A stretch of 48,876 nt of DNA from Nephila pilipes (lineage: Eukaryota), in the NCBI GenBank assembly GCA_019974015.1, contig BMAW01057368.1, positions 103,751 through 152,626 of the forward strand, written 5' to 3'. Under the pieces are notes generated by a model, which searched no databases, was not told where the DNA came from, and worked only from the letters and a program-made list of their open reading frames with translations. Positions within the stretch are counted from its first letter, which is position 1. Each line of letters starts with the position of its first letter. Shown here piece after piece: positions 14,719-48,274 of the stretch. A program made the translations under genes and the position numbers.

Positions 14719-15442
14719 GTGAGTGTTGATCAGCAGTTCTTGTTTGTTAAAATAAGGAATATTCGAATTGTTAATTTTTGGTTTTAGAAACAATTTGAAA
14801 CTATCGTAAGATGTCAAACAAAATCTTTATAATACATGCTAAGGTGAAGAAAATTTTTATGAACAGTGAATTTTTTTAAATTGTATTTATTAAGATTGTG
14901 TTTAATGCTTTCACTGAAACCCAGTTGTCATGGTGGCCAATTTAAGGCTAGCAAAATTCAAATTTAGTTCTAACTGTGTTAAAACACCATATTGCTGAAA
15001 GATGGGGGGAGGGGGCTGTTACATGTTAACTTAATCTAGAACTTATAATCCTCACATGACATAGTGTGAAAGTAAAGAGTGAGGTACCTATTAAGGCATG
15101 TATAGTTATTAATAGAATACTAATTTTGAATGATTGCTTAAAATTGCAAGCTTTATAGCCAATAGCCTTGATCTTGTTTTAATATAATGTGAATTTTAAT
15201 GAAAAACACAAGTTACATTTATTTCAGTTTAAAAATATTTCTAAGTTCATTTTATAATTATTATTTGCTAATATTTTCTACTTTGAGTGAGATATATCTT
15301 TTGTCAAATGTTGATCTAAAATCTATTATCTTTTCTGTAAATTTCTGTGTGTTATTGATTTTTTAAAATAATTTGATTATTATGAAAATAATTCTTAATT
15401 TCACATTATTAAGCTCAAAATGCATTGATTGCTTCATCTCAG

Positions 15443-32799: not shown

Positions 32800-34900
32800 T
32801 TCAAGTACTTAACTCTTATCTTGTAATTTAAAATTATGAGAACCTTTAATCAAATAGCTTGTGTTGGTGTATAGCATGGGTGGCCTAGCTCCTTGATAGT
32901 CGGAGCCATTTCTCAAAATTTGAAATTTTTTGCGATCCGCAATTAAAAAGGTATTAAAATTTTTTTTTACAGAAATTATGTTTATTGAAAACATATAAAA
33001 AAAAGTACAAAATGTTTCTATTGAATTTAAAAATTAAACACATTTATTTTACTTATTTTGATAATTTTTTAAAATTTGGTGAATATTTGGTGACAGCACT
33101 TCTCAGTAATTCTTTCAGATACTGGGTAGATAATACTGAATGGTGTTTGGATTTCACGAATTTTAAAGGGGAATAAAATGATTCTTATAAGTACGTTGTT
33201 CAGAATATTGAAATAATTCAACAAGCAGCCTTTTTTAATTCAGAATACTTCGATTCTGGTACAAATTTCCTAAATTTAGTAATTGGCGTCAACTTATATT
33301 TTAATTGTAGAGCATGATCTTCTTGCATCTCTATTAATTCTAATTCTCCAGATGCTTTTTAGGTCATAATTATATTGGAAATGGAAAACTCACCTTGAAT
33401 TATGTTAATTTCAAATGGATTTAGAAAAAAATCAACATTTTAAATTTTCAAGAGACATTTTAAATTTTTCTAGTCTTGAAATCTATTTTGTAATTCTGTC
33501 AATATACCTTCTATCTTTTTTATATACTCATTGAGTTTTTCTTGTTTAATATTGGAACAAATTTTTATAATTTGAGGAAAATGACAAAATGTTTTATTTT
33601 TTATATCATTTTAAAAAAGTTGTAATTTAGTTTGAAAACTAAATATTCACTGTGAGAGGTCAGATATTATTTTATCTTTCCCCAGCAATTGTAAATTGAG
33701 TGTTTGCAAATGTTCCATGACATCAGTCAAAAACATTGTCTTGTTACCACTCATCATCGTCTAATTCTGAATAGGTGATTTCCTTTTCTTTTACAAATGC
33801 AGTTATCGGATCAAACAAATCTACAAATCAATTAAATTCATTGTAGCTAGGTAACCATCTAACAATGCAAAAGCAATTAATGTCATTTGGAAGTTCTTCG
33901 TCCTTTAATTCTTCAAGGAAATATTTGAATTGTTAATGATTTTTTGCATTGGTGCGAATGTAATTTACAATGTGTAACACTGTTTTCATAACATCAGGAT
34001 ATTTTAAATATTTTGTAACAAGATGCTCTCGGTGAATTATGCAGTGAATCGGTATGAATTGTGGAATTTTAGAATCATCTCTTAAAAGTCCAATAAGACT
34101 GACTTTTTTACCCAGCATTGCCGGAGCTCCATCAGTTGCAATGCTTACAAGTTTTTTAAGAGGCACATCAAAGTTTTCATTATGGAATCTAATGCATTTT
34201 TAATATCGTCGCCACAGGTTGAAGTGCTACTAATTCTAATAATTCTTCTTTGACAACGAAGTCAGATGAAACAAAAGGTATGAAAACTACCAATTGCGGA
34301 AGATCTGTGATATCTGTCAATTTGTCAAGGGCTAAGCTGAATGCAATACAGTTCTTCAAATCATTTTTTAAATTATATTCAAGAGATGTATTAATTGCAG
34401 TTATGTATTGTTCGGTTGTGTGTCTCGAGATGGGAATTTGCGAAACAACTTTCTGCAATGCTACATTATTTAGATCTAAAACTTTAAGTACATCTTCCAA
34501 GTTTTTTTTTAATAAACTCTACTTCTCCATATGGGCATTTTGCACAAGCAATATTCCTGGCAATAACAGAACTGGCTTCAGCCACATTATCTTGATTGCT
34601 AAAGGTCGTCAAAATTGATTGTTTATTTAAATTCAATTTTAAAGATGCAAGTTCATCTAATTTTAATTTGGAATGTGGTGGATACAGATTAGAAAACTGA
34701 GGATGATTGGTTTCATAATATTGACGTAAATTGCGAGCTTTATAATTTTTGACCATAGAATTACAAATAACACATAATGCTTTTCTGTTATTGTCAATAA
34801 AAAAGAAATTCTCCTTCCACTCATTATTAAAACTTATATTTTCTTGCTTGTATTTTCTTTTTTTATTTTTGTTCCCTGTCATCATATTTTTAAAGGAATT
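32800..34900 (-). pseudogene. hAT-superfamily (ZBED5/FAM200/Buster-like) transposase pseudogene, antisense in the last MVP intron
   Basis: Three consecutive minus-strand ORF pieces: 34885..34484 (FNNEWKENFFFIDNNRKALCVICNSMV, N-terminal zinc-finger region), 34500..34189 and 34166..33933 (SIATDGAPAMLGKKVSLIGLL...IPIHCIIHREHLVTKYLKYPDVMKTVLHIVNYIRTNAKNH). The last block is the characteristic hAT/ZBED5-family DDE motif. A degenerate continuation (..FLEELKDEELPNDINCFCIVRWL..) lies below 33933. It is broken by frameshifts. Confidence 0.65.
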
Positions 34901-36342: not shown

Positions 36343-38394
36343 CAAATGCAATAAACTAACATATTATCAGTTTTTAAAATTATGTAGGAACACACAAAAA
36401 ACTACATGCTCGTGCAAATCCCCAGGAACAGGCTTGATTCTTATGTGTTGTAAGTATGTAATTTCTGCAATATTTAAAACATGTAATATTTTGATTTTGA
36501 AATTAATTAATAATATTCTTGTATGTTAAGAATTTCAAACTCACATGCATGTATTGAATGTACTTTACTATTGCTGTTTATGCTGTATAAATAAAATGAA
36601 TTATGTACTGAAGATAATAGAACTGTAATTAGTCTTTTTATTAACATACATTAATAACTATCTATATTCTATTTTATTTGGAATGTAATAATGGAATGTA
36701 TATTTATATATTGCTTTGACATGTGTATTTTCTTTTGTATTATGAAACATTAGGATTTTTAATGTATATACTTAAATTTATATTAATGTGCTGTAATCTT
36801 TATTATTAGCCTACTTGTCCTCAAAATAAGAAGGTAATCAGTATTTTGAATACTCAGGACTTTTTGTAAAATTTCGTATATGTATTGAAAACGATGAGAG
36901 TGAAAAAAATCGGCTTTATAATTTATATTTTATTTCTAAGCTTTAAAATTTTGGTAATTTATATGAAGAACTTTTGTGTAAGTTATTTTCATCTATATGT
37001 TTTCAAAATATGAATAAATGGAACAATTTAAAAAAATTTGGTTTGTTAAAATATATCTTTAAGCCAATATGCCTTCATTTATATACTTGTAAAAAGGAAT
37101 TAAAATTATATACTACATTTTAGCTTCAAGTTGATATATATATGAGATTACTGTTTGAATATTTATAATTAAGTATATAATATTTGTTAAACAATATTCA
37201 TTATCTCAATAATAAATGCTGAAATTGTTGTAAAGATGAAGATAAATACGATTTTTCTTTTAAAGTATTTAAATTTATTCATTTAAAATCTTCTCTTATG
37301 TTTTGCTTATCCATGAAACATTGAAGTTCAAGTTTATATTAGCTTATTACTAGGGTTAACAGAATTAGTAATCATAACCTTTTTTGAAATATCATTATTG
37401 CTATCTTGTAGATGTCGGAGCAGTGAAAAATTTAAGTTTTATATATTTAAAAAAATTAAATTTTTAAACCTAATAAATAGAACACATATACATATGACAC
37501 ATATATATCATATAGCTGTGTGTCTATATGATATATAAATATATATGTATTTGGAATTGTCCTAATTGTGTTAATGCTTTATGTCCAGATTTGGCTTTAC
37601 TGTGTAAGGAAAAGTCATTAATCTATTGAGTTTGCAATTGTTATTGAAATCCAATTAAGCTGTATTTTGTGAAATTTTTAAAAGCTTTAATGACTAAATG
37701 AATATATATTAAATGTTTTAGAAAATGTTGTAAATTTTTTCTGTGTTTATTGTTAAATAAGAGAGATGGTTTATTTTTAATCATAAATGCCATATTGCTC
37801 CTTTAATATTTTCCATTAAAATGTATTTTTGATTTAAAAAATGTTAATATTTTTTTAAATGTATGTAGTAAATTACGTAACTATAAATTGTACATTGTGA
37901 AAAAATGTTTATAAAAAATATTCATGTTATCTTATTTATTTTTGACAATTGCAATAAATGATATGTTATAAAATTACGACTTGTCGTTTATTTTTCGTTA
38001 AGTGTTTCCAATGTTTTGAAAAATGTAGTTCAGGATCTAAGATGATGCCTAGATATTTAGGATAGTCAACTCTTTTTATTTGGGACTCCTTTATCTTTAT
38101 GGTCGCTCTAAAAGTGCTACGAAGTTGTTTGTCGGAAGAAAAAATGCAGTAGTTGGTCTTGTCTGCTTTGATGGTCAATTTCAAATCTTCAGCTCATGCA
38201 GCGATGCCCCCAAGAGTAGCACTGATTAAAATAAATTGTACTTAAACTTAAAAATAAATAACTCTCAGATTATCTGTTTCTTATTATTTACTAGTCGTTT
38301 TTTTGAGGCCAGAAATAAAAACTGCTTTTCGATCTTTCATTTTTTATTTTCAACAATAAACAAAAACAATTACAATTCTGCTGCTTATTTTCAT

Positions 38395-38512: not shown

Positions 38513-38573
38513 TAGAGCAGCTTAAAAACACCAAAAAGGGCTCCTAAAAACTAGCATCTATCTAGCTCATGAT

Positions 38574-38856
38574 GGGGCCGCGGTAGCCTAGTGGTCAAGG
38601 TCGTGGACTAGCGGCCGGCGGTTTTCGTTCAGTCGCGGGTTCGATCCTTGGCAGCCAAAGACCCGCCGTGTAGCCAGGGCTGATTCACGTTAAATCTGTT
38701 CGGGGCCCAAAGTCCTTCCATTGGCATGCTGTGGAAGTAAGGAGACGGGGTGGCAGCTCAGGTGTCGTCCTCGTCACTTGACCGTGGTTCAAAATTACGA
38801 GGTCCGTCGCCAATAGCTCTCGTGTTGCTTCTAGTGCGACGTTAATAAAAACTAAA
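38574..38856 (+). mobile_element. tRNA-derived SINE copy A, nested inside the LINE, with target-site duplication
   Basis: The head GGGGCCGCGGTAGCCTAGTGGTCAAGG...GGGTTCGATCC has A-box (TAGCCTAGTGG) and B-box (GGTTCGATCC) polymerase III promoter motifs. It has the conserved 3' module ..caaaattacgaggtc..gttgcttctagtgcgacgttaataaaa. Flanking direct repeats atctagctcatgat sit at 38558-38573 and 38857-38870. Confidence 0.75.
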
Positions 38857-40464
38857 ATCTAGCTCATGATCTATCTAGAATCTCCTCTCTTTGTCTGTCT
38901 GGTCTGAAAATCAAAATAAAAAATAACTTCTTTATATATCGGTACACCACGTGGGTCTGACGAACGAGGGGCAGTTCGATCCACCCACGTGACTACCACC
39001 TATGTAGGCCACGGATTCTCGACATTGATTACCTCCTTTGATACAGCAGTGTCTATGTGTGAGAGCCAAACGGCTGTATCATCTACATAGTAGGCGGATT
39101 TTGTGTCAGGCTGAATGGTGTTCATATAAATGAGAAATAAAAAGGGACTTAGGACTGATCCCTGTGGTACGCCAGCCCTCAATTTATGTAACTCAGAGAG
39201 CACTCCATTAAACCTCACAGAGAATTTTCTATCACGAAGAAAGTCGTTAATCCATATGAGCGCATTGCCCTTTATACCTGTGTTGTAACAAATGTGTACC
39301 AGTTTCTGACTCCATACACGGTCAAATGCTGTAGGAAAGTCTAGAAACACTGCCACAGTTTTACGATGAGGTTTCATCTTAAGACCATCTATTGTATGAC
39401 ATAAATAGAAGAGCTGATCTACGTTGTTGTGATGGGATCGATATGCATTTTGGTAGAAATGAAGTTTATTGTACTTGATGAGCCAGTCCATAAGTCTGTG
39501 GTAGATTACACGTTCCATTAGCTAGCAAAGTGTGCTGGTGAGTATTGGCCTAAAGTTATTGCATTGGGATGCATTTTTGCTTGGCTTTAGTAATATAGGA
39601 ATTATTATGGAGTTTTTCCAGATTTTTGGTAATTTGCCTGTAGTCAAGGAGAGGTTGAAAATTTCCAAAAGTTCCTTTTTTGCACTTAATCCAAAGTGCT
39701 GCAACATCTGGCCAAAGATTAAGTCACTACTGGGAGTTTTGAGGAGATCCATTTTGGCAATCGCAAAATCTAGCTCCTCCATTGATACTCGTTCAGTGAA
39801 AATGTCATTAATTTGGTAGTTTCTTGAGAACTTTATCGAATTTCTATGGGCATTGAGCAATTTTTTATCATTTGCATTGAAATCCGGTTTACTTTTTATT
39901 CCATAATGCTCTGCAAGCATCGATGTAGTTTCTTTGTTTGTGGCAGCACTTTTGCCAGAAAGGGAAATTGTGTTTGACTGAAGATTAACTTTCCTTAGAG
40001 TTGTTTGATTATTTAAAATTTTAATGACTTTCCAGTGCTATGAAATCCTTCTAGGGTCTAATTTTTCACAGAATTCAGCCCATTTCTTACGCTTGCAAGA
40101 GGAGATTTTCTCCTCAACTCTATGACAAATCTCGGTGAATCTCAATCTGATTGTATCAGTGTTATTTGCCATCAGAACAACACAAAGTTTGTCGTGTTCA
40201 TGAATGAGAGCATCAATATTAGCATCTTTCCAATAGGAGACCCAGTCGTCTCTTTTGATTCTAGAAATTGAGACTTTTGCTGCCGAAAGGATGCGCATGG
40301 TAAATGTTCGTATTTTATCTTCGAGCATTAAAATCACTGTAAAGTAAAATTAGTTTTTGGTTTCTGAGGAATATATATGTTGTAATTTTTTCATGTATAT
40401 CTTTTCATGTATAACTTTTTTTTTCAAATTTTTGAATCTTAAGAAAAATTCTGTTTTTTACTAT

Positions 40465-40925
40465 GCCACATTAGCATGGTTGTGGACATGTTGCCAGCGT
40501 TATTTTCATTGAGTCTTGGATTCGACCTCTGATGCCACTAAATACTCGCCATGTAGCCTGGGATCAAAATCGAAGCAGTCAGTCTTCTGAGAAGCAAAAG
40601 GCGTGGACCACAGGAAGTTTATATCTGCCGGAGAAACAGTATACGATCAGTTTTATGCCAAAGTAATTGAATGTTTGAGGATTAGAAGATCCACAGCATT
40701 TAAAGGGAAATCGTTGGAACCTGAATGCTTCATTCCGACATCACTACTGTAGTAGGGTCTGATGTACATTAAATTTGTCAATGTCATAAATGCTCTCTGG
40801 CAGGGTGTGGAAGTTTAAAGAGCGAGAAGCCACTGTGTGTCATCCAATGTCTTTTAATTGAGTTTCAAAATTATGAGGTCTGCCACAAATAACCCTCGGA
40901 TTGCTTCTCAGTGTGACGTCATTGC
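40465..40925 (+). mobile_element. SINE copy B, longer variant with inserted central region
   Basis: tRNA-like GGATTCGACCTCTGATGCC segment. The 3' module ...aatgctctctggcagggtgtggaagtttaaagagcga...caaaattatgaggtctgccacaaataaccctcggattgcttctcagtgtgacgtc matches the other copies. Confidence 0.55.
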
Positions 40926-41214
40926 ATACTTGCAATGTATGTTAATGGAATTACTGTATTTTCTTGGTTCTGTTTTCATTTTAAAAAGTTTTTTCACTTG
41001 ATTATCCAATTTTGCTAAATCTTAAATGATTTTTAAACTTAAGTGTTTATTATTAATTTTATAAATCATTTTCAAAATATATTATGTAGCATATAACCTT
41101 CTTAATAAACTATTTTCATCATGTATGATTTTATAATTTTTTCCTTATTTTTAAGTTAAAAGTGACTTTTTGATTGTAGTTATGAATTAATGGCTGGCGT
41201 TGTTTTTATCTAAA

Positions 41215-41462
41215 AGGGGGTTCAAGCCCTGAAACCATTAAAAACTTCTTATATAGTGCAGCTAATGCACCTTAAATCTGGTCGAGGTCTCATGTCCTCC
41301 AGTGGGCATGGTGTGGAACTTTGGAGAGAGAGGGGGGGGGGGGGTTTCCAGCTTAAGTGTTATTCTCATCACTTTGTGGATATTCAAAATTACGAGATTC
41401 ATCACTGATCTCTTGTTGCTTCTCAGTGCAATGTCAATAAAACAATATTTTAAGTTGAAAAT
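41215..41462 (+). mobile_element. SINE copy C, 5'-truncated
   Basis: GGGGGTTCAAGCCC B-box-like segment followed by cacc ttaaatctggtcgaggtctcatgtcctcc...ttcaaaattacgagattcatcac..cttgttgcttctcagtgcaatgtcaataaaa. It has the same 3' module as the other copies and contains a G12 run. Confidence 0.55.
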
Positions 41463-42330
41463 TTAATTATTCAATTGAAAAAACGCTTGATGCTTCCTCA
41501 ATTTAATTTTGGTAAGTAATAGTACGAAATCATTTAAACTGATTTCCACGAAAATGAATTTTCTTATGTACTTTTATTTCAATTGGTTTCAATTATTCAT
41601 TTACTTTTTAATTAGGGTCTTGCAATAAAAACTTTGGTTTGTCAATATTTTCATTAATTGTAAATCTGAAATCCGTGTTAATAATCCTACAAGGCATTCA
41701 TCTAATACTATGTTAATAATCCTACATTTTACTATTGTTATTAGCACTGTAATTCAAAATAAATAGTAAATCTTGTTTAATATTAAAGAAACACATGTAT
41801 GAAAATTATTTAGAAGGATTTTACGTGGATTATCAATCCATTATATGTTTGTATTCATTGAGATAATTTCTTTTCCAGAAATAATGACTAAAGAAAAGCA
41901 TTCAAAATTCATCATAGTCCTCATGAACTAAGGAAGTTCAATTATCGCTCATTTTGGAGCGAGATATTTAAAAAAGAATGTCTCTCAAGGGTGGGAAAAG
42001 CACAAGAAAATTTTGATATTGCTGTATAGACTGAACTAATAGAGCAAGTGATAAAATCTGTTGTGCTATTTTGCAGGAGCTTTTGAAGCCATCATTCAAC
42101 TTGTGTATTTCATTTCGAAATAATAATTTTTTTTATACAAACATATTTTCAGGGCCACCATCAGCAATTTGTAGATCTAAAATTCTTCAACATAAAGTGC
42201 TCGACATTATAACTAATGTCTTATGGTACATAGTAACAAAATCACTCCCTCCCATTAAACAATTGCACAAGAAAATTTATCATCCAGAAATTCTTTTCAT
42301 CATTGTTCCAAGTCACTAAACTCAAAACAA

Positions 42331-42594
42331 GTCGGCTGCGGTAGCCTGGTGGTCGCAGACTCAATGCGGCTTTACTTTCGTCGAGTTGTGGGTTCGAGCT
42401 CTGATGCCTCTAGAGACCCACCGTGTAGCAAGGTTGATACACGTTAAATCTGATCAAGGTCTCAAGTCCTCTCACTGGTGTGGGGTGGGTGCCAGTTTAG
42501 GTGTCGTTCTCTTCACTTGACCGAAATTAAAAATTACGACGTTTTACGCCAATATCTTACTTGTTGCTTCTCAGTGAAAAATTAATAAGCATTC
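42331..42594 (+). mobile_element. SINE copy D with target-site duplication
   Basis: GTCGGCTGCGGTAGCCTGGTGGTCGCAG...GTGGGTTCGAGCTCTGATGCC (A and B boxes), then cacgttaaatctgatcaaggtctcaagtcctc...aaaaattacgacgtt..cttgttgcttctcagtg. It is flanked by cactaaactcaaaacaa (42314-42330) and cactaaactcaaacaa (42596-42611). Confidence 0.75.
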
Positions 42595-44636
42595 GCACTA
42601 AACTCAAACAATTTTTATTCAAAAAATACAGAAAAGCCTACATAACTATAAAATGGCCCTAATGCTTAATCCTCTACAACATTCACTTTTTACACCTTTT
42701 ATTGTCTTGTTGGTGTGTTAAAATGAATATCTGTTACTTTATTTCAGTTTTGCTGAAAAATTTCTTTCCTTTATGTACTTTTATTATTTTTGGCAACGCA
42801 GGTGTTGGTAGTTACAGATGTGGCTTAAAATCTCTATCTACTGTTTCTCATCAATCTGTCTGGTCTAGGTCGACTCCATTGTTATGGTTTTAATTTTTCT
42901 TTCACCTCTTCTGTCTCTCTTCATACAATAATTCTTCGGAGCTGGTTCCCTGCTTCACTGCTGCTATATATTTTCAAATATTGTCCAATCTGTTACTGCT
43001 TGAAATCAGAGTAAAGCGGTTGCCGTCACTGTGTACTCTCAAATGCATTTTAACTATTACTCTGTTTTCTAGCGATGAAACTAATAGATTTTTCTATGTA
43101 CGATTTGTACAGCACTCTTGCACAGTGTGCTATTTGTACAGCTCCTCTTCCAGCTAGAATCCAAAAGTTGTAGAAAAATATTTGCGATTTAACATTATTA
43201 TTTTTACTATTTTGCGATTTAACATTATTCCTTTTGTATTATATAATGAGCCTTTCTACTACAGGATGTTTTTTGTTAAAATTATAGGGCTCTTGAAATC
43301 TCTTAAGCATCTTTTCTATAAATTATCTTTGTCTTCAGTCACATTATGCTATTAAGCACCTGGGGAGACAATCATTTTTCGAAATGTCTTCTTCTGAATT
43401 AGAAGGTTTTTTTTAACCAGTTTATAGTTGTTTGAACTTTTTTTATTTCTCTCGCCATGAGAAAATTAATCCATATTTTTCTTCCTTAACCAGAATAAAT
43501 ATAACAAGAAAAGTATTGGTTGAAAAAATTAGAATATAAATGCTCCTGAAATGAATCTTTTTAATAATTACTCAATTCACTTAATTATTTTTTGAAGATT
43601 TGCTAAGCATCCAATGCATCAACTTGTACTTTTTCTCCCAGAATTTAATCATACTAATCAAAATTAGATACATGTTACTAATCTAATCCTAACTGGCCTT
43701 TCCATAATTTAGATACCTAATATTGGTAAATGGAACAATTAGTGAAGTTATGTCTACTGAATTGAGAGATCCTGAAATGTGTCTCCAAATTTCTGGTATG
43801 GTTAATTTGCAAATTTCTTTCATTTTGTTATGCACAAAAACAACCTATATTTCCTTTGTCTAAATCCATGTAAATACTTATCAATGAATCTTTTTAAAAA
43901 AAATGCGTGAAATATTTTCCTACTATAATTTTTCTAATAGAGAAATACACTGCAGCTGCTAATAATTCTAATTCTGGAATAATCACTTGTTTGACAGGTG
44001 AAACTTTTGAAGTCATGCCCGTTAAATGAAAACAAATTTCGAATGAGGAGTTTCAGGATGAACACAAATTATCGTGTAAATGGTTAAATTTGTACAGCAA
44101 AAAGTGTGCCGACTTGTAAATATTGATATCAATGTTTAAAACTGTACTCATCTCTGATTACAAAGCGCTTAAAGATATACAACTTTCGATACCAATACAA
44201 AATACCAGTCTTAATTTCAGAGAAATTGTAACTTAGAAATTAGGAAAAAGGAAAAGAGAGGGAGAAAAAATCAATAGGGTCGAATGCCCAACGAGAGTAG
44301 TGGAAAGAATCCTTTCAAAAAATTTCCTTAATCTCCAAGTTTTCCAATCCAACTTTAATTTAGTTGAGAAAAATTTGAAGGAAAAAATTAACTTAATATT
44401 TTTTCAATATATCACAATTTTACTCTCAATTCATATACTCAGTATACCAATTAGTTTATAAAAATTGAAAATAAAATATTCCAAGATATCTACCATAAGC
44501 ATTCAAATTATTAAAAGATATAGATGAGAATTTTATTATATGCAAAAGTATCTAGAAAATCAGTACTTCATGAAAATGCATAAAATCTTGTGATATACAA
44601 TGAGTTACTTTAAATAAAATTAAAAATTGGTTCATC

Positions 44637-44781
44637 GAATAGGTGTCCCTAGAGAATAGCTTCCTAGATAGGTTGCCAAAGATGTGTGACTTAAGCATTG
44701 AGTATGCTTTGGGTTACCATGACCTAAATCGCCAATTATCAATCCCAAAAGTCGTCAATCTCTTAGTGGACACCCTATTCC
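44637..44781 (-). mobile_element. MITE-like palindromic element copy 3, reverse orientation relative to copy 1
   Basis: gaataggtgtccctagagaatagcttcctagataggttgccaaag...gggttaccatgacctaaatcgcc...cttagtggacaccctattcc. Its reverse complement matches 18996-19160 along the full length. Confidence 0.6.
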
Positions 44782-47039
44782 CAATTTGAACAGAGATTAC
44801 TTACAACACAAATGAAGAAATAAAATGCTACTGAATAAAATATACATATGCTTCTTTACTACGTCCAACTATTTACTTCATTAATATCCTCCTACATTAA
44901 ATATATTTATATGTAGGTGCATGAAATATTTATTTACATGATTAAACAAACTACAAGACTGATGTGTGACAAAATGAAAAATGTAATAAAGAACATGTGC
45001 TTTAATTTAATTATGTGCACATCATTGCTATCATGACAGATTGGGCCTTGCAATAGGCTCAGTTTGTTACAAATTGAAAAAATTTACAAGATAATAACCA
45101 ACACAAAACACAAGTCTCCTAAATAGATAATTATTAGGCTTAAAATTTTGATATATATACATAATTGTAAGAAAAAATAGAGATGTATTCAATTGTTTAC
45201 AACTAATCAAAAGTAACCTGAAACCAATATATTTTAAAACAATATACTTCTTTATAACATATGTTCAATAACAATAGTTTTATTTCACCAATATCTTTGA
45301 TATTTCAACATTTTTTTTTTTTTTTTTTCCAACAAGATACTTTGAAATTCTACAAATGATCGTATTTTAGTAAATTTGAAAGCTCACATCGTGTTAACAA
45401 GACCTCGATTATTTATTCAAACAGCAAGATATTTCTATTTCAATTTTAAAAATCATTAAATGGAATAGATGCAGACTGATTAATGTAAACAACAATGACA
45501 AAAAACTACTGAAGCATAAATTCAATTTCGTTCCAGACAAAAGATAATAAAAAAAAATAATAAGGAATTCTGCTTAACTAAATTAATACATTTCGCTTAA
45601 TTGCAAAGTACAGCCTTCTTTCAAATAATTTTTTATAGATGCTAAATATAAAATAATCTCAAAAAATAATACGTATTGCAGCAATTGTTATTACGAATTA
45701 AGTTTGTTTATACTAACCTCTATTTGCAAGTTCGTCAAAAGTATAATAAATAATTTAAAATTAAACAAATAATTCAGATTATTTTGATCACCCATGAAAT
45801 TTATATTTCAGCATCGTTCGAAGACTCGAAAATTAAAATGGCAAGTTGTTTGATTTAAGTACTAAAATAGACTACATTTTTGATACAATGCACGCAAAAT
45901 GACACTTACGAATCAACAAAAAAGAAAAAAAAAAAAATTTCAACCCCATTCTTTCAAACAGATATTATGTAAGAGAGTATTATATTGAAACCATAAAATA
46001 TTCCTGAACAAAATGAAATTACAAAAAAATAATAATAATAAATAAATATTTGAGACCCTCAATTTAAAAGAATTGAATAAATTAGAAAAAAAAGGAAGAA
46101 AACAGCGAGGCCTTGAAGTATTTAGGTCTTGAATGATTTAGTAGTAAAACAGACAGTTAAAAACGGTGACATTTTGATACATAAACACAGACATAAATTA
46201 CTTATTCACTAATATTTTTTATGTCCTAAAATATATTTCTTTTATGATATCGATAATCATTGCAAAGTGTCAAGTTTCCTATGGACCTTTTGTAGAAATG
46301 ATATCTAACGAAAATAAGGTGGTAATATCCAACACCTCACCAGGAAAGATATTAATTATCTAAAATAAGAGGCTTTGACTTTGGATTTGGGTTGATTTAT
46401 GTTTCATGCCTTTTCTTCGCGGTGTAATGAGAAATAGTCCACCAATCTGACAATCAAGTATGATAAGCGAGGGTTCTGAGTGACTAGGAACATTTTGACA
46501 AAATAAATGTTTTCGCTGGAACCAATCTGTAATGAATCTGCGTGAACCATTAGCAGAATCTTATTTCAGAGATTCCAAAGCCAAAGCTCGAATTCTGAAA
46601 ACGATCCACAAGACCACTAATACAAATATCGAATACTTAGAACCTGATTTTCAAAATATTCAAATAACATTGTAACATATATTGGCCACTATTTGAGGAC
46701 AATTACAATTACTAATTTACAGTACAAAACAATAACAAATGTGTTGTTCTGATGTGCCGAATATTCAACTTATCTCTATGTTATATACATGTACAATCTA
46801 ATATATTGCGTTTCTTTCTTATTTGAAGGTTAACAAGCTGACGACGATACTATTTGTAATTTTGGAAGACAAATGATACGAGGTCCTTCAACAATAAATT
46901 ACAAATTGCTATATTATGAGCTAAAATCTTGAACAATTTTATTAGTTCTAGTCCCTTTGTATTTTGAATTTGGGTTAGAAATTAATGTTTCCGTTTCTGG
47001 TTAAACAAACCGGGTTGAGATTAAAATAAGGTTAGACTG

Positions 47040-47558
47040 CAGACGCAAGAAACTTATTGTTACGCTGGATTTGGCGACACCGCTGTGTAAGTGGTTTCTC
47101 TCCTAGTCCCCACCCGGTGAGTCGTTCATGAAGCTCATTTTAGTTTGCAGCCGTTGAGATCTAATTCCCCTCTCCTCCTAAAGTGAAAATTACAGCTCTG
47201 TGATTCCTTGTGCATGTGTCGTGCATGCAATTAATTAAACATGTGATGCATTGGTGGACATTCATTTCCAAACTTCGCCACGCAATTCAAAACAAGAGGA
47301 GAGGCATGCTACGAAGGGTGTGTACATCATCAGGACACATTCGTCCACGCTCACCAGTTTAACAACCGATCTCAACTAACAAATTTGGAATACGGTACTA
47401 TCACCCACCACCCTACAGCCCACATGACTATCATATCTTTTCTGAAATGAAGAAACATCTGGGTAGGACAATTTCAGAACCGAAAGGAGCTGAAAGAGGT
47501 TTTGAACTTACATTCGTTGCGCGACGGAAGAGTTCTCTACGATTCGAGGCATAAAGAT
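47040..47558 (+). mobile_element. mariner-like (Tc1/mariner, DD34D-type) transposase C-terminal remnant, truncated by SINE E
   Basis: Frames give ..RRGMLRRVCTSSGHIRPRSPV.QPISTNKFGIRYYHPPPYSPH..DYHIFSEMKKHLG...KELKEVLNLHSLRDGRVLYDSRHKD. This matches the mariner motifs (V)LLHDNARPHxA...WExLxHPPYSPDLAPSDYHLFxxLKxxLxGKxF.SDEEVK. There are frameshifts. Confidence 0.6.
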
Positions 47559-47828
47559 TAGTTTAGTTTAGTTTTATTAACGTCACACTAGAAGCAAAGA
47601 GAGCTATTGGTGATTGAATTCTAAATTTGAATCGAGTGACGAGGACGACACCTGAGTTGAAACCCCTCTTCTATCTTCCACACCACTCCAAGGAGCCTTT
47701 TGGGTCCGACAAGATTTAACTGCTTCCCAGCTACCCGGTAGGTCGCCAGTGGCCAAGCATCGACCCCAATGACTGAACGAAAATGTTGGCCACGAATACC
47801 GACCATAGTACTGAGCGTGGTCACCAGG
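47559..47828 (-). mobile_element. SINE copy E, reverse orientation, first of a tandem pair
   Basis: Reverse complement of the family 3' module (ttattaacgtcacactagaagcaaagagagctattggtga...) and a diverged tRNA-like head (..gttggccacgaataccgacc..). Confidence 0.65.
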
Positions 47829-47840
47829 TATAAAGGTGAT

Positions 47841-48107
47841 GTTTTAGTTTAGTTTTTATTAACGTCGCACTAGAGCAACACGAGAGCTACTGGCGACGGA
47901 CCTCGTAATTTTGAACCACGTCAAGTGACGAGACGACCTGATGGACCCCCTCCTTACTTCCACAACGAAAAGGACTTTGGCACCGACAGATTTAACGGCA
48001 TCAGCCCCAGCTATACGGCAGTCTTTGGCGCCAAAGGATCGAACCGCGACTGAAAGAAAACTGTCGGTCACGAGTCCTCGACCTTGACCACTAGACTACC
48101 GGCCCCC
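47841..48107 (-). mobile_element. SINE copy F, reverse orientation, near-identical to copy A
   Basis: ttattaacgtcgcactagagcaacacgagagctactggcgacggacctcgtaattttgaaccacg... is the reverse complement of copy A at 38574-38856. It ends in ..gaccactagactaccggccccc, the reverse complement of the GGGGCCGGTAGTCTAGTGGTC head. Both E and F are preceded or followed by ataaag(a/g)tg. Confidence 0.7.
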
Positions 48108-48274
48108 ATAAAGATGGTGTACCTCATGCAAAAATGCAATTGGCGATTATGTCGAAACTGAGGAAACTTAAGCTTTCCACAATATTATTCAATGCCGATG
48201 AACATGTTTTTACAACGTTTTTCTGAATTTCACTTGGTGTGTGTGAGTGTGTCATGAAATTTTTGATCGTTATT

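What the first reader, a model, noticed from the sequence alone, without database searches (positions are those of the whole stretch)
38574..48107. tRNA-derived SINE family with at least 6 copies, a conserved 3' module and intact target-site duplications
Copies at 38574-38856, 40465-40925, 41215-41462, 42331-42594 (all +) and at 47559-47828 and 47841-48107 (both −, tandem) share a tRNA-like head with pol III A and B boxes (TAGCCTAGTGG ... GGTTCGATCC). They also share a distinctive 3' block, ..cacgttaaatctg.tc..gg.c...aagtcct.c..tgg..gtgg...ggtgtcgt.ct..tcacttgacc...caaaattacgaggt...gccaat..ctc.tgttgcttct.agtg..acgt.aataaa. Copies A and D keep 14-17 bp target-site duplications (atctagctcatgat and cactaaactcaaa(a)caa), and copies A and F are nearly identical, so transposition was recent. 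The conserved 3' block may be a LINE-recognition tail shared with a partner LINE. The LINE 3' ends in this window are too degraded for me to tell. Copy B has a divergent inserted central region, which makes it a subfamily or chimera.
Basis: seen in the sequence. Interest (0 to 1): 0.55.

Follow-up and report, generated by a model that had tools for sequence, protein, structure and literature searches.

The report
A spider SINE retrotransposon family
The repeats are real copies of a short, non-coding "copy-and-paste" element (a tRNA-related SINE) that is abundant in golden orb-weaver spiders; this is ordinary genomic junk-DNA biology, not a new kind of system.

Summary
The window is Nephila pilipes (orb-weaver spider) DNA. 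All six reported repeats are real members of one ~265-285 bp family, and I found a seventh, decayed copy at ~14.9-15.2 kb.

Evidence that it is a retroposed SINE:
- The copies share nothing beyond their own ends.
- Four of them carry their own target-site duplications of 11-17 bp.
- They have no terminal inverted repeats and no open reading frame.
- Each starts with pol III A-box and B-box motifs.
- Each ends in AATAAA(A) plus (CTAAA)n.

The same family, with clean TSDs, is abundant in Trichonephila clavipes and present in T. inaurata. I did not see it in small samples of T. clavata, Caerostris, Araneus and Stegodyphus.

- Copies A and F are 84% identical counting gaps and 93% over aligned bases, so they are not "nearly identical". 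The other copies are 68-80% alike, so these are old insertions.
- Copy F inserted 4 bp upstream of copy E.
- Copy B is a head piece and a body piece separated by ~160-185 bp of unrelated DNA.
- The head is tRNA-like only through its promoter boxes and a residual cloverleaf. The source tRNA is undetermined.

The partner LINE was not found, so the idea that the 3' block is a LINE-recognition tail stays a plausible inference. I could not check Dfam, Repbase or SINEBase.

The parts
38574..38856 (+). SINE copy A. Full length, 283 bp. Best-preserved copy, flanked by an exact 14-bp TSD at 38560-38573 and 38857-38870.
   Evidence: A box TAGCCTAGTGG 11/11 and B box GGTTCGATCCT 10/11.
40464..40577 (+). 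SINE copy B, head piece (profile positions ~14-94).
   Evidence: nhmmer (E = 8.5e-5 to 1e-9).
40578..40738 (+).
40739..40929 (+). SINE copy B, body and 3' block (profile positions ~87-264). Decayed, and the tail is lost.
   Evidence: nhmmer (E = 4e-22).
41183..41455 (+). SINE copy C. 5'-truncated or decayed (profile ~30-283). Tail AATAAAAC.
42331..42595 (+). SINE copy D. Full length. TSD at 42314-42330 and 42596-42611.
47558..47825 (-). SINE copy E. Full length and older. Tail AATAAAA(CTAAA)3. TSD at 47826-47836 and 47547-47557 (9/11).
47843..48107 (-). SINE copy F. Full length with small deletions. Inserted 4 bp upstream of E. TSD at 48108-48120 and 47830-47842 (11/13).
14907..15215 (+). Seventh, heavily decayed copy (G), outside the reported interval.
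   Evidence: nhmmer with the improved profile, (E = 7e-4 and 0.7). Alignment.
38901..40337 (-). LINE reverse-transcriptase fragment next to copy A. It is context, not the demonstrated partner. A further piece lies at 37969-38232(-), and the 3' end is missing.
   Evidence: (100% identical to a Nephila pilipes RT protein).

Best explanation
These are copies of a tRNA-related SINE (a short non-autonomous non-LTR retrotransposon) of nephiline orb-weaver spiders.

Anatomy of the element (~265-285 bp):
- A ~75-85 nt head starting GGGGCCGCGGTAGCC. It carries pol III A and B boxes and a residual cloverleaf.
- A ~190 nt body of unknown origin.
- A short tail. In N. pilipes it is AATAAA(A) followed by (CTAAA)n. 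In Trichonephila it is AATATTC followed by (AATC)n or (ACTC)n.

Inferred mechanism:
1. [quoted passage not shown]
2. The RNA is reverse-transcribed at staggered chromosomal nicks by the enzymes of a LINE (target-primed reverse transcription). This produces the 8-17 bp target-site duplications and the occasional 5'-truncated copies.
3. The conserved 3' ~100 nt, predicted to form two hairpins just before the tail repeat, is the most likely handle by which the LINE reverse transcriptase picks up the RNA.

What is shown: family membership, independent insertion, TSDs, promoter boxes, tail, and presence in two genera.

What is inferred: pol III transcription, LINE dependence, and the role of the 3' block.

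The window copies are old, inactive relics (7-30% diverged). They sit in a nest of other transposons.
For: Family and independent insertion:
- Homology between copies stops at the element ends.
- TSDs are specific to each copy.
- No inverted repeats.
- Stop codons in all six frames.

Promoter:
- A box 10-11/11 and B box 9-11/11 in most copies.
- The box spacing is 44 nt in Trichonephila and 49-54 nt in N. pilipes.
- The head motif occurs 3 times in the window and 0 times in 100 shuffles.
- ARAGORN at 80% threshold draws a 72-nt cloverleaf at positions 5-76 of both Trichonephila consensuses.
- The Rfam tRNA clan gives a weak match, 13.4 bits.

Tail:
- (CTAAA)n occurs only at SINE ends in the window.
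- (AATC)n and (ACTC)n tails are seen in T. clavipes.

Other genomes:
- 56 profile hits in four T. clavipes loci, including ~20 full-length copies with their own TSDs.
- One full copy with a TSD in T. inaurata.
- 921 and 752 predicted proteins carry SINE-derived peptides. All 120 listed, and 19 of the 20 sampled, are named T. clavipes. The twentieth, P0244, is an unnamed and unrelated repeat protein.

3' block:
- A named two-hairpin structure pairs 86% of cells, against 25-46% when the partners are slid.
- It shows a U:A to A:U swap between the two Trichonephila subfamilies, and G:C to A:U changes in window copies.
Against: - The head is not recognised as a tRNA by ARAGORN at default or at the first relaxed (-ps) setting. 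It is also not recognised by the Rfam tRNA model at E <= 10 over the region, nor on a young T. clavipes head. The source tRNA is therefore unknown.
- The N. pilipes copies carry a TTTT run inside the head (GGTTTTCGTT). This could terminate pol III.
- No LINE 3' end resembling the SINE tail was found in the window or in ~200 kb of related loci.
- The LINE family next to copy A ends in ...GAGAACAACAACAATC where it is intact, which is unlike the SINE tail.
- Folding of the 3' block is not thermodynamically exceptional (z = -0.7 to -1.8). An alternative fold removes the key covariation, and RNAalifold's own consensus is weak.
Confidence: 0.9

Rival explanations
1. It is a SINE, but the conserved 3' block is simply the family's own body of unknown origin and not a LINE-derived recognition module. 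On this reading the LINE recognises only the terminal microsatellite, or nothing specific.
For: - No LINE with a similar 3' end was found.
- Conservation is fairly even along the element: 0.65-0.90 per 15-nt bin, and only slightly higher at the 3' end.
- Folding z-scores are unremarkable and an alternative fold exists.
Against: - The 3' ~100 nt are the part kept best between Nephila and Trichonephila copies.
- The proposed hairpins show both-sided changes between subfamilies.
- Microsatellite tails are typical of LINEs that recognise a specific 3' structure (established knowledge of L2/CR1-type LINE-SINE pairs).
Confidence: 0.4
2. The copies are segmental or tandem duplications of one locus and not independent insertions.
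For: - Six of the seven copies lie within 9.6 kb.
- E and F are adjacent and in the same orientation.
Against: - BLAST homology ends at the element boundaries.
- Each full copy has a different TSD.
- E and F are only 72% identical.
- TRF finds no array in the region.
- The family is dispersed in other genomes.
Confidence: 0.02
3. It is a MITE or other non-autonomous DNA transposon, or a set of tRNA genes or pseudogenes.
For: - The head contains tRNA-like boxes.
- The region is rich in DNA transposons: a mariner fragment and Tc1 genes in the related loci.
Against: - No terminal inverted repeats.
- TSD length varies from 8 to 17 bp.
- The structure is polar, with a 3' simple-repeat tail and 5' truncations.
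- No tRNA call by ARAGORN or Rfam.
- A 190-nt non-tRNA body follows the head.
Confidence: 0.02
4. The repeats are 5'-truncated 3' ends of a LINE, or of another long element, and not a discrete short element.
For: Several hits cover only the 3' half.
Against: - About 24 full-length copies in three species all begin at the same G-rich 5' end, directly after a TSD.
- Their lengths are unimodal at ~265-285 bp.
- The sequence upstream of the 3'-only hits is either an older copy of the same SINE or unrelated.
Confidence: 0.03

Closest known systems
tRNA-related SINEs in general (SINE2 type; SINEBase definition: head, body, tail)
   Same: - Length ~270 bp.
- Internal pol III A and B boxes at tRNA-like spacing.
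- Body of unknown origin.
- Simple-repeat tail.
- Variable-length TSDs and 5'-truncated copies.
- Subfamilies with diagnostic changes.
- High copy number.
   Different: - No specific source tRNA can be named.
- The N. pilipes subfamily has a 5-10 nt insertion containing TTTT between the boxes.
- No partner LINE has been identified.
SINEs with LINE-derived, stem-loop-containing 3' tails and short-repeat ends, for example the eel UnaSINE1/UnaL2 pair or CR1/L2-mobilised SINEs (from established knowledge)
   Same: - A conserved 3' region predicted to form hairpins just before a 4-5 nt repeat tail.
- The tail repeat unit differs between lineages: (CTAAA)n, (AATC)n and (ACTC)n.
   Different: - Sharing of the tail with a LINE was looked for and not found in the available sample.
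- The structural evidence is only suggestive.
SINE classes reported by RepeatMasker in Trichonephila antipodiana: tRNA-Deu, MIR and tRNA-Core. Together they make 106,507 copies, 1.1% of that genome (PMC7976613).
   Same: - A nephiline host and abundant tRNA-headed SINEs.
- The head of this family resembles the MIR head as I recall it (26/31 identical; local alignment score 30 against 13 +/- 2 for shuffles). An automatic classifier might therefore file it under one of these labels.
   Different: - The body shows no similarity to the MIR CORE region (score 18 against 15.8 +/- 2.2; the MIR consensus came from memory).
- The Deu/Nin domain could not be compared, because no reference sequence was available.
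Ruka, the tRNA-derived SINE of ixodid ticks (Sunter et al. 2008, cited in SINEBase)
   Same: A chelicerate host and a tRNA-related head.
   Different: Ticks and spiders are very distant, and I recall no similarity in the body. This was not tested here.
Tandem and palindromic SINE arrangements described in bivalves (PMC11481361)
   Same: The T. clavipes relatives form a 386-bp tandem array of 22.6 units and antisense nested pairs.
   Different: The window itself has no such array. E and F are an ordinary nested insertion.

Membership tests
SINE (SINEBase definition) | Short (75-662 nt) and non-coding | tested here: met
   Full copies are 265-283 bp. Stops occur in all six frames.
SINE (SINEBase definition) | 5' head derived from a pol III-transcribed RNA, with an internal A/B-box promoter | tested here: met
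   A box 10-11/11 and B box 9-11/11, spacing 44-54 nt. The motif pair occurs 3 times against 0 expected.
SINE (SINEBase definition) | Head assignable to a specific tRNA (cloverleaf or model match) | tested here: inconclusive
   - ARAGORN at default and -ps settings finds none.
- At 80% threshold it draws a 72-nt cloverleaf, called Ala or undetermined.
- Rfam gives tRNA-Sec at 13.4 bits on copy A only, and nothing.
SINE (SINEBase definition) | Many dispersed copies with unrelated flanks and target-site duplications | tested here: met
   TSDs are 8-17 bp and differ at every locus.
SINE (SINEBase definition) | Simple-repeat or A-rich tail | tested here: met
   AATAAA(A)(CTAAA)n in N. pilipes. AATATTC(AATC)n or (ACTC)n in T. 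clavipes.
SINE (SINEBase definition) | Transcribed by RNA polymerase III | not testable with these tools
   No expression data were available. A TTTT run in the N. pilipes heads is a caveat.
SINE with LINE-derived tail (stringent type) | 3' end homologous to the 3' UTR of a LINE in the same genome | tested here: inconclusive
   No such LINE end was found in the window plus ~200 kb of nephiline loci. The intact LINE homologue in L001 ends differently. The sample is far too small to exclude a partner.
CORE-SINE / MIR superfamily | CORE central domain | tested here: not met
   Local alignment of the body to the MIR body is no better than shuffles (18 against 15.8 +/- 2.2; 55 of 300 shuffles score as high).
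DeuSINE / Nin-DC superfamily | Deu or Nin central domain (~70-120 bp in invertebrates; PMC4824008) | not testable with these tools
   No reference Deu/Nin sequence was available, and the supplements are not held.
MITE / DNA transposon | Terminal inverted repeats and a fixed-length TSD | tested here: not met
   0 inverted repeats around copies A and D. TSD length varies from 8 to 17 bp.
tRNA gene or simple tRNA pseudogene | Recognised by tRNA finders and about 72-90 nt long | tested here: not met
   ARAGORN finds 0 in the window. There are no Rfam gathering hits. The element carries a ~190-nt non-tRNA body.

The most novel reading that the evidence does not exclude
The 3' ~100 nt may be a structured module (two hairpins plus a lineage-specific 4-5 nt repeat) that has evolved by compensatory change in master copies across Nephila and Trichonephila. 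On this reading it is the recognition handle for an as yet unidentified stringent-type LINE. The different tail repeats, (CTAAA)n against (AATC)n and (ACTC)n, would then mark partner switching between spider lineages. This would be a first characterised SINE-LINE partnership in spiders.
Probability: 0.3. Interest if true: 0.4.

Novelty: new member of a known kind. Interest (0 to 1): 0.2.

Why it matters
The value is mostly practical.

- **Annotation.** Spider genomes are more than 50% repeats, and their SINEs have not been described individually in the literature I could search. A curated consensus for this family would improve repeat masking.
- **Cleaning up a proteome.** It would remove a visible annotation artefact. 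Hundreds of 'hypothetical proteins' in the T. clavipes proteome are translations of this SINE, and one 811-aa 'protein' is a SINE-derived satellite.
- **Phylogenetic markers.** The family offers presence/absence markers within Nephilinae.
- **Mechanism.** It is a starting point for finding the partner LINE.

Biologically it is an ordinary SINE, and the copies in this window are old relics.

Tried and rejected
**Source tRNA**
- I tried ARAGORN at default and relaxed settings, and Rfam at gathering and E-value thresholds, on the region and on isolated heads.
- The result was only a residual cloverleaf with inconsistent anticodon calls. The source tRNA remains unassigned.

**Partner LINE**
- The window LINE is 3'-truncated.
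- Its intact T. clavipes homologue ends in (CAA)n-like sequence, unlike the SINE tail.
- Scans for the tail motifs and for short BLAST matches outside SINE copies found nothing.

**Public collections**
- A metagenome scan gave two chance hits.
- Prokaryote genome contigs and viral contigs gave none.

**Literature**
- Searching for sequence strings found only primers.
- One paper looked SINE-rich only because of the word 'sinensis'.
- The supplements of SINEBase, the bivalve SINE paper and the MetaSINE paper are not held, so known consensus sequences could not be compared.

**Fetching DNA**
- N. pilipes proteins are not indexed for fetching DNA, so two look-ups were wasted.

**Ideas dropped**
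- My recollection that these peptides are common across arachnid proteomes was not borne out. All 120 proteins listed and 19 of the 20 sampled are T. clavipes. The twentieth, P0244, is an unnamed and unrelated low-complexity repeat.
- The recurrent 'inverted full copy plus 3' half' structures in T. clavipes first looked like a foldback element. They resolved into young copies nested antisense inside older copies.
- A second, hidden head inside copy B's spacer was tested and not found.
Full report
**Where the window comes from.** The window is AT-rich eukaryotic DNA, 21-40% G+C in 2-kb bins. An RT open reading frame at 39000-39518(-) is 100% identical to a protein annotated in Nephila pilipes. 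Its next-best relatives are from Trichonephila and Caerostris. The window is therefore N. pilipes, the giant golden orb-weaver.

**Checking the observation.**
- blastn of each reported copy against the window finds the other copies and nothing else, and homology stops at the element ends.
- A profile HMM built from five copies finds the same six places.
- A better profile, built from 20 copies of three species, adds a seventh, badly decayed copy at ~14907-15215(+).
- Identities to copy A are: F 84% (283 columns, gaps counted) or 93% over aligned bases (K2P 0.07); E 74-80%; D 71-77%; C 68-77%. 'Nearly identical' is too strong, and the copies are old.
- The head motif GGTAGYCTRGTGGTC...GGTTCGA occurs three times in the window, against none in 100 shuffles.

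**Anatomy of the window copies** (read directly; repeats confirmed):
- **A:** 38574-38856(+). Exact 14-bp TSD ATCTAGCTCATGAT on both sides.
- **D:** 42331-42595(+). TSD CACTAAACTCAAA(A)CAA.
- **F:** 47843-48107(-). TSD ACACCATCTTTAT / ACATCACCTTTAT (11/13).
- **E:** 47558-47825(-). TSD CCTTTATACCT / TCTTTATGCCT (9/11).
- **F and E:** F's downstream TSD overlaps E's upstream TSD. F therefore inserted 4 bp upstream of an E copy that was already there. They are only 72% alike, and TRF sees no array, so 'tandem' here means nested insertion.
- **C:** ~41183-41455. It lacks the first ~30 nt.
- **B:** two profile matches with nearly contiguous model coordinates, 14-94 at 40464-40577 and 87-264 at 40739-40929. 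About 160-185 bp that match neither the SINE nor anything else lie between them. It is most simply one old copy interrupted by an insertion. A variant subfamily cannot be excluded from one example.
- There are no inverted repeats at the ends and no open frame.
- The tails are AATAAA(A) followed by (CTAAA)1-3. That pentamer repeat occurs nowhere else in the window.

**The same family elsewhere.**
- I fetched DNA around spider genes to sample other genomes. A T. clavipes locus chosen through an RT gene (L001, 21 kb) holds one full copy and one 3' fragment.
- Translating copy A in six frames and searching proteins found T. clavipes 'hypothetical proteins' built from this repeat. A second search with consensus-like peptides gave 921 hits. 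An exhaustive search with a 56-aa window peptide gave 752 representative proteins.
- All 120 proteins listed are T. clavipes. Of the 20 I sampled, 19 are named T. clavipes. The twentieth, P0244, is an unnamed and unrelated repeat protein.
- Three loci fetched through such proteins (L008-L010) contain dozens of copies. About 20 are full length, each with its own 8-17 bp TSD.
- T. inaurata has a full copy with the TSD CAACA(C/A)CCTGAT.
- I found none in 20 kb of T. clavata, 37 kb of Caerostris, 12.7 kb of Araneus ventricosus or 14.7 kb of Stegodyphus. These are small samples, so the negatives are weak.
- Two T. clavipes subfamily consensuses were derived.
  - S1: GGGGCCGCGGTAGCCGAGTGGTATAGGTATCGGACCGTGGCTTGCTTTGTCACGAGTTCGAGCCCAGTACCACTAAAGACCCGCCGTGTAGGGCAGCGATGCACGTTAAATCTGTCGAGAGCTGAAACGTCCTCCCGTTGGTGTGGTGTGGTAGTTAGGAGAGGGGGGTGCCAGCTCAGGTGTCGTCCACGTCACTTGACCATGGTTCAAAATTACGTGGTCCGTCGCCAAAAGCCCTCGTGTAGCTGAACAGTGCGACGTTAATATTC(AATC)n.
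  - S2 is 94% identical to S1. Its head is ...TAGCCTAGTGGTCAAGGTAACGGACTCGTGGCCGGCG..., it has ...CCTCGT...ACGAGG... in the 3' block, and its tail is (ACTC)n.
  - Window copies A and F are 84-86% identical to these and resemble S2 most in the head.

**The head.**
- A-box (TRGCNNAGTGG) and B-box (GGTTCGANNCC) matches are 10-11/11 and 9-11/11 in most copies. The spacing is 44 nt in Trichonephila, as in an ordinary tRNA. It is 49-54 nt in the N. pilipes copies, which share an extra ~5-10 nt (…GGTTTTCGTTCAG…).
- ARAGORN finds no tRNA at default or mildly relaxed settings. At 80% threshold it draws a 72-nt cloverleaf at positions 5-76 of both consensuses. The anticodon calls are inconsistent (Ala, undetermined), and there are equally weak false calls in the body.
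- Rfam gives nothing at gathering score or at E <= 10 over the region. On the isolated head of copy A there is a 13.4-bit match to the tRNA clan. There is nothing on the Trichonephila heads.
- 'tRNA-related' is therefore justified by promoter boxes and layout, and the source tRNA is unknown.
- The TTTT run in the N. pilipes heads could be a pol III terminator. Several copies share it, so it did not prevent amplification, but it is a caveat.

**The 3' block.**
- It is the best-kept part between genera, though conservation is fairly even along the element (0.65-0.90 per 15-nt bin).
- I propose two hairpins:
  - CC(U/A)CGU...ACG(A/U)GG, enclosing UUGACC..GGUUCAA;
  - GUCGC...GCGAC, enclosing AGC...GCU, immediately before the tail.
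- Counted on 17 copies, 86% of cells pair, against 25-46% when partners are slid. Eleven cells have changes on both sides (1 of 500 shuffles reaches this). These include a U:A to A:U swap that separates S2 from S1, with A/A intermediates, and G:C to A:U changes in window copies C and E.
- Against this, RNAalifold's own consensus is weak at -6.3 kcal/mol. Single-sequence folds have z-scores of only -0.7 to -1.8. An alternative fold pairs the S1-specific U with a different A.
- The structure was also derived from these same sequences. I rate it as suggestive.

**The partner LINE.**
- The LINE next to copy A (38901-40337 and 37969-38232, minus strand) is broken and lacks its 3' end.
- An intact relative in T. 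clavipes (L001) continues through an RNase H-like region and ends ...GGACACGAGAACAACAACAATC. This has no resemblance to the SINE tail.
- No tail-like sequence outside SINE copies was found in any locus.
- The tail repeat differs between N. pilipes and Trichonephila. The upstream flank of A (TAAAAACTAG) and the TSD of D (…ACTAAACT…) resemble the tail unit. These points hint at tail-target annealing during priming, but this rests on anecdotes.

**Comparison with known families.**
- The structure fits the SINEBase definition of a monomeric tRNA-related SINE with a body of unknown origin, which is the commonest layout (PMC3531059).
- RepeatMasker tables for Trichonephila antipodiana list 106,507 SINE copies (1.1% of the genome), classed tRNA-Deu, MIR, tRNA-Core and tRNA (PMC7976613). 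Automated libraries very probably already contain this family under some such label.
- The head resembles the MIR head as I recall it (26/31; score 30 against 13 +/- 2). The body does not resemble the CORE region. That reference came from memory, so this is a weak test.
- I could not compare with Deu/Nin, Meta or V domains, or with Dfam, Repbase or SINEBase, because no reference sequences were accessible.
- No paper in the searchable library describes an individual spider SINE.

**Verdict.**
- This is an ordinary tRNA-related SINE family. It is probably not formally described, but it is almost certainly present in automated repeat libraries.
- It is at least as old as the Nephila-Trichonephila split and was most active in T. 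clavipes.
- The window copies are relics in a transposon nest. A lies beside, or in, a LINE fragment. E and F lie inside a mariner transposase pseudogene.
- Interest is low. The open points are the partner LINE, the source tRNA, and whether the 3' hairpins matter.

Noticed in passing
window 14907-15215 (+): A seventh, heavily decayed copy of the same SINE lies outside the reported interval. Only the improved profile finds it.
   Followed up: yes
window 38.5-48.1 kb compared with the rest: Six of the seven copies lie within 9.6 kb of a 48.9-kb window. That stretch is a transposon nest (LINE fragment, mariner fragment) with higher G+C. I did not test whether this reflects insertion preference or selection elsewhere.
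   Followed up: no
window 37969-38232 (-) and 38901-40337 (-): Two pieces of one I/Jockey-like LINE (RT) are separated by ~670 bp that contain SINE copy A. The 172-aa ORF at 39000-39518 is deposited as a Nephila pilipes 'reverse transcriptase domain-containing protein'. The LINE lacks its 3' end.
   Followed up: partly
window ~47100-47557 (+) and 48108-48170 (+): Copies E and F are inserted in the C-terminal part of a mariner-type transposase pseudogene. The translation reads ...HPPPYSPHDYHIFSEMKKHLGRTISEPKG... before the insertion and ...RWCTSCKNAIGDYVE... after it. I recognised the motif from knowledge of mariner and did not run it against Pfam.
   Followed up: partly
window 38940-39035 (+): A G+C-rich stretch (…CACGTGGGTCTGACGAACGAGGGGCAGTTCGATCCACCCACGTGAC…) carries a B-box-like GTTCGATCC and an 8-bp inverted repeat (CCACGTGG / CCCACGTG), where the LINE homology breaks off. 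Its origin is unknown.
   Followed up: no
window 38617-38630, with equivalents in copies F, E and C: The N. pilipes copies share a 5-10 nt insertion between the A and B boxes that contains a TTTT run, a potential pol III terminator. It is absent from all Trichonephila copies.
   Followed up: partly
L010 11123-20789 (T. clavipes BMAU01019528.1): A tandem array with a 386-bp period, 22.6 units and 98% matches. Each unit contains one copy of this SINE, so this is a SINE-derived satellite. It is annotated as an 811-aa 'hypothetical protein' (P0121).
   Followed up: partly
T. clavipes proteome (P0121-P0364): Roughly 750-920 predicted T. clavipes proteins contain translations of this SINE. Some are named dystrobrevin beta, SETMAR or Tc1 transposase. 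This is an annotation artefact worth masking. P0122 also contains a ~23-aa minisatellite derived from the SINE 3' block.
   Followed up: partly
L009 10666-11149; L008 8520-8900 and 5383-5704; L010 692-1107: In several T. clavipes places, a young full-length copy sits antisense inside an older copy at about model position 125-150. This may be an insertion hotspot, or simply the result of high density.
   Followed up: partly
window 38545-38563 against 38846-38864; TSD of D at 42314-42330: The upstream flank of copy A (TAAAAACTAG) and the TSD of copy D (…ACTAAACT…) resemble the SINE tail unit. This hints at annealing of the RNA tail to the nicked target.
   Followed up: no
window 34189-34885 (-): ORFs of 103 and 133 aa look like a hAT/ZBED-type domesticated transposase N-terminus (…CVICNSMVKNYKARNLRQYYETNHPQF…). 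I recognised this from memory only.
   Followed up: no
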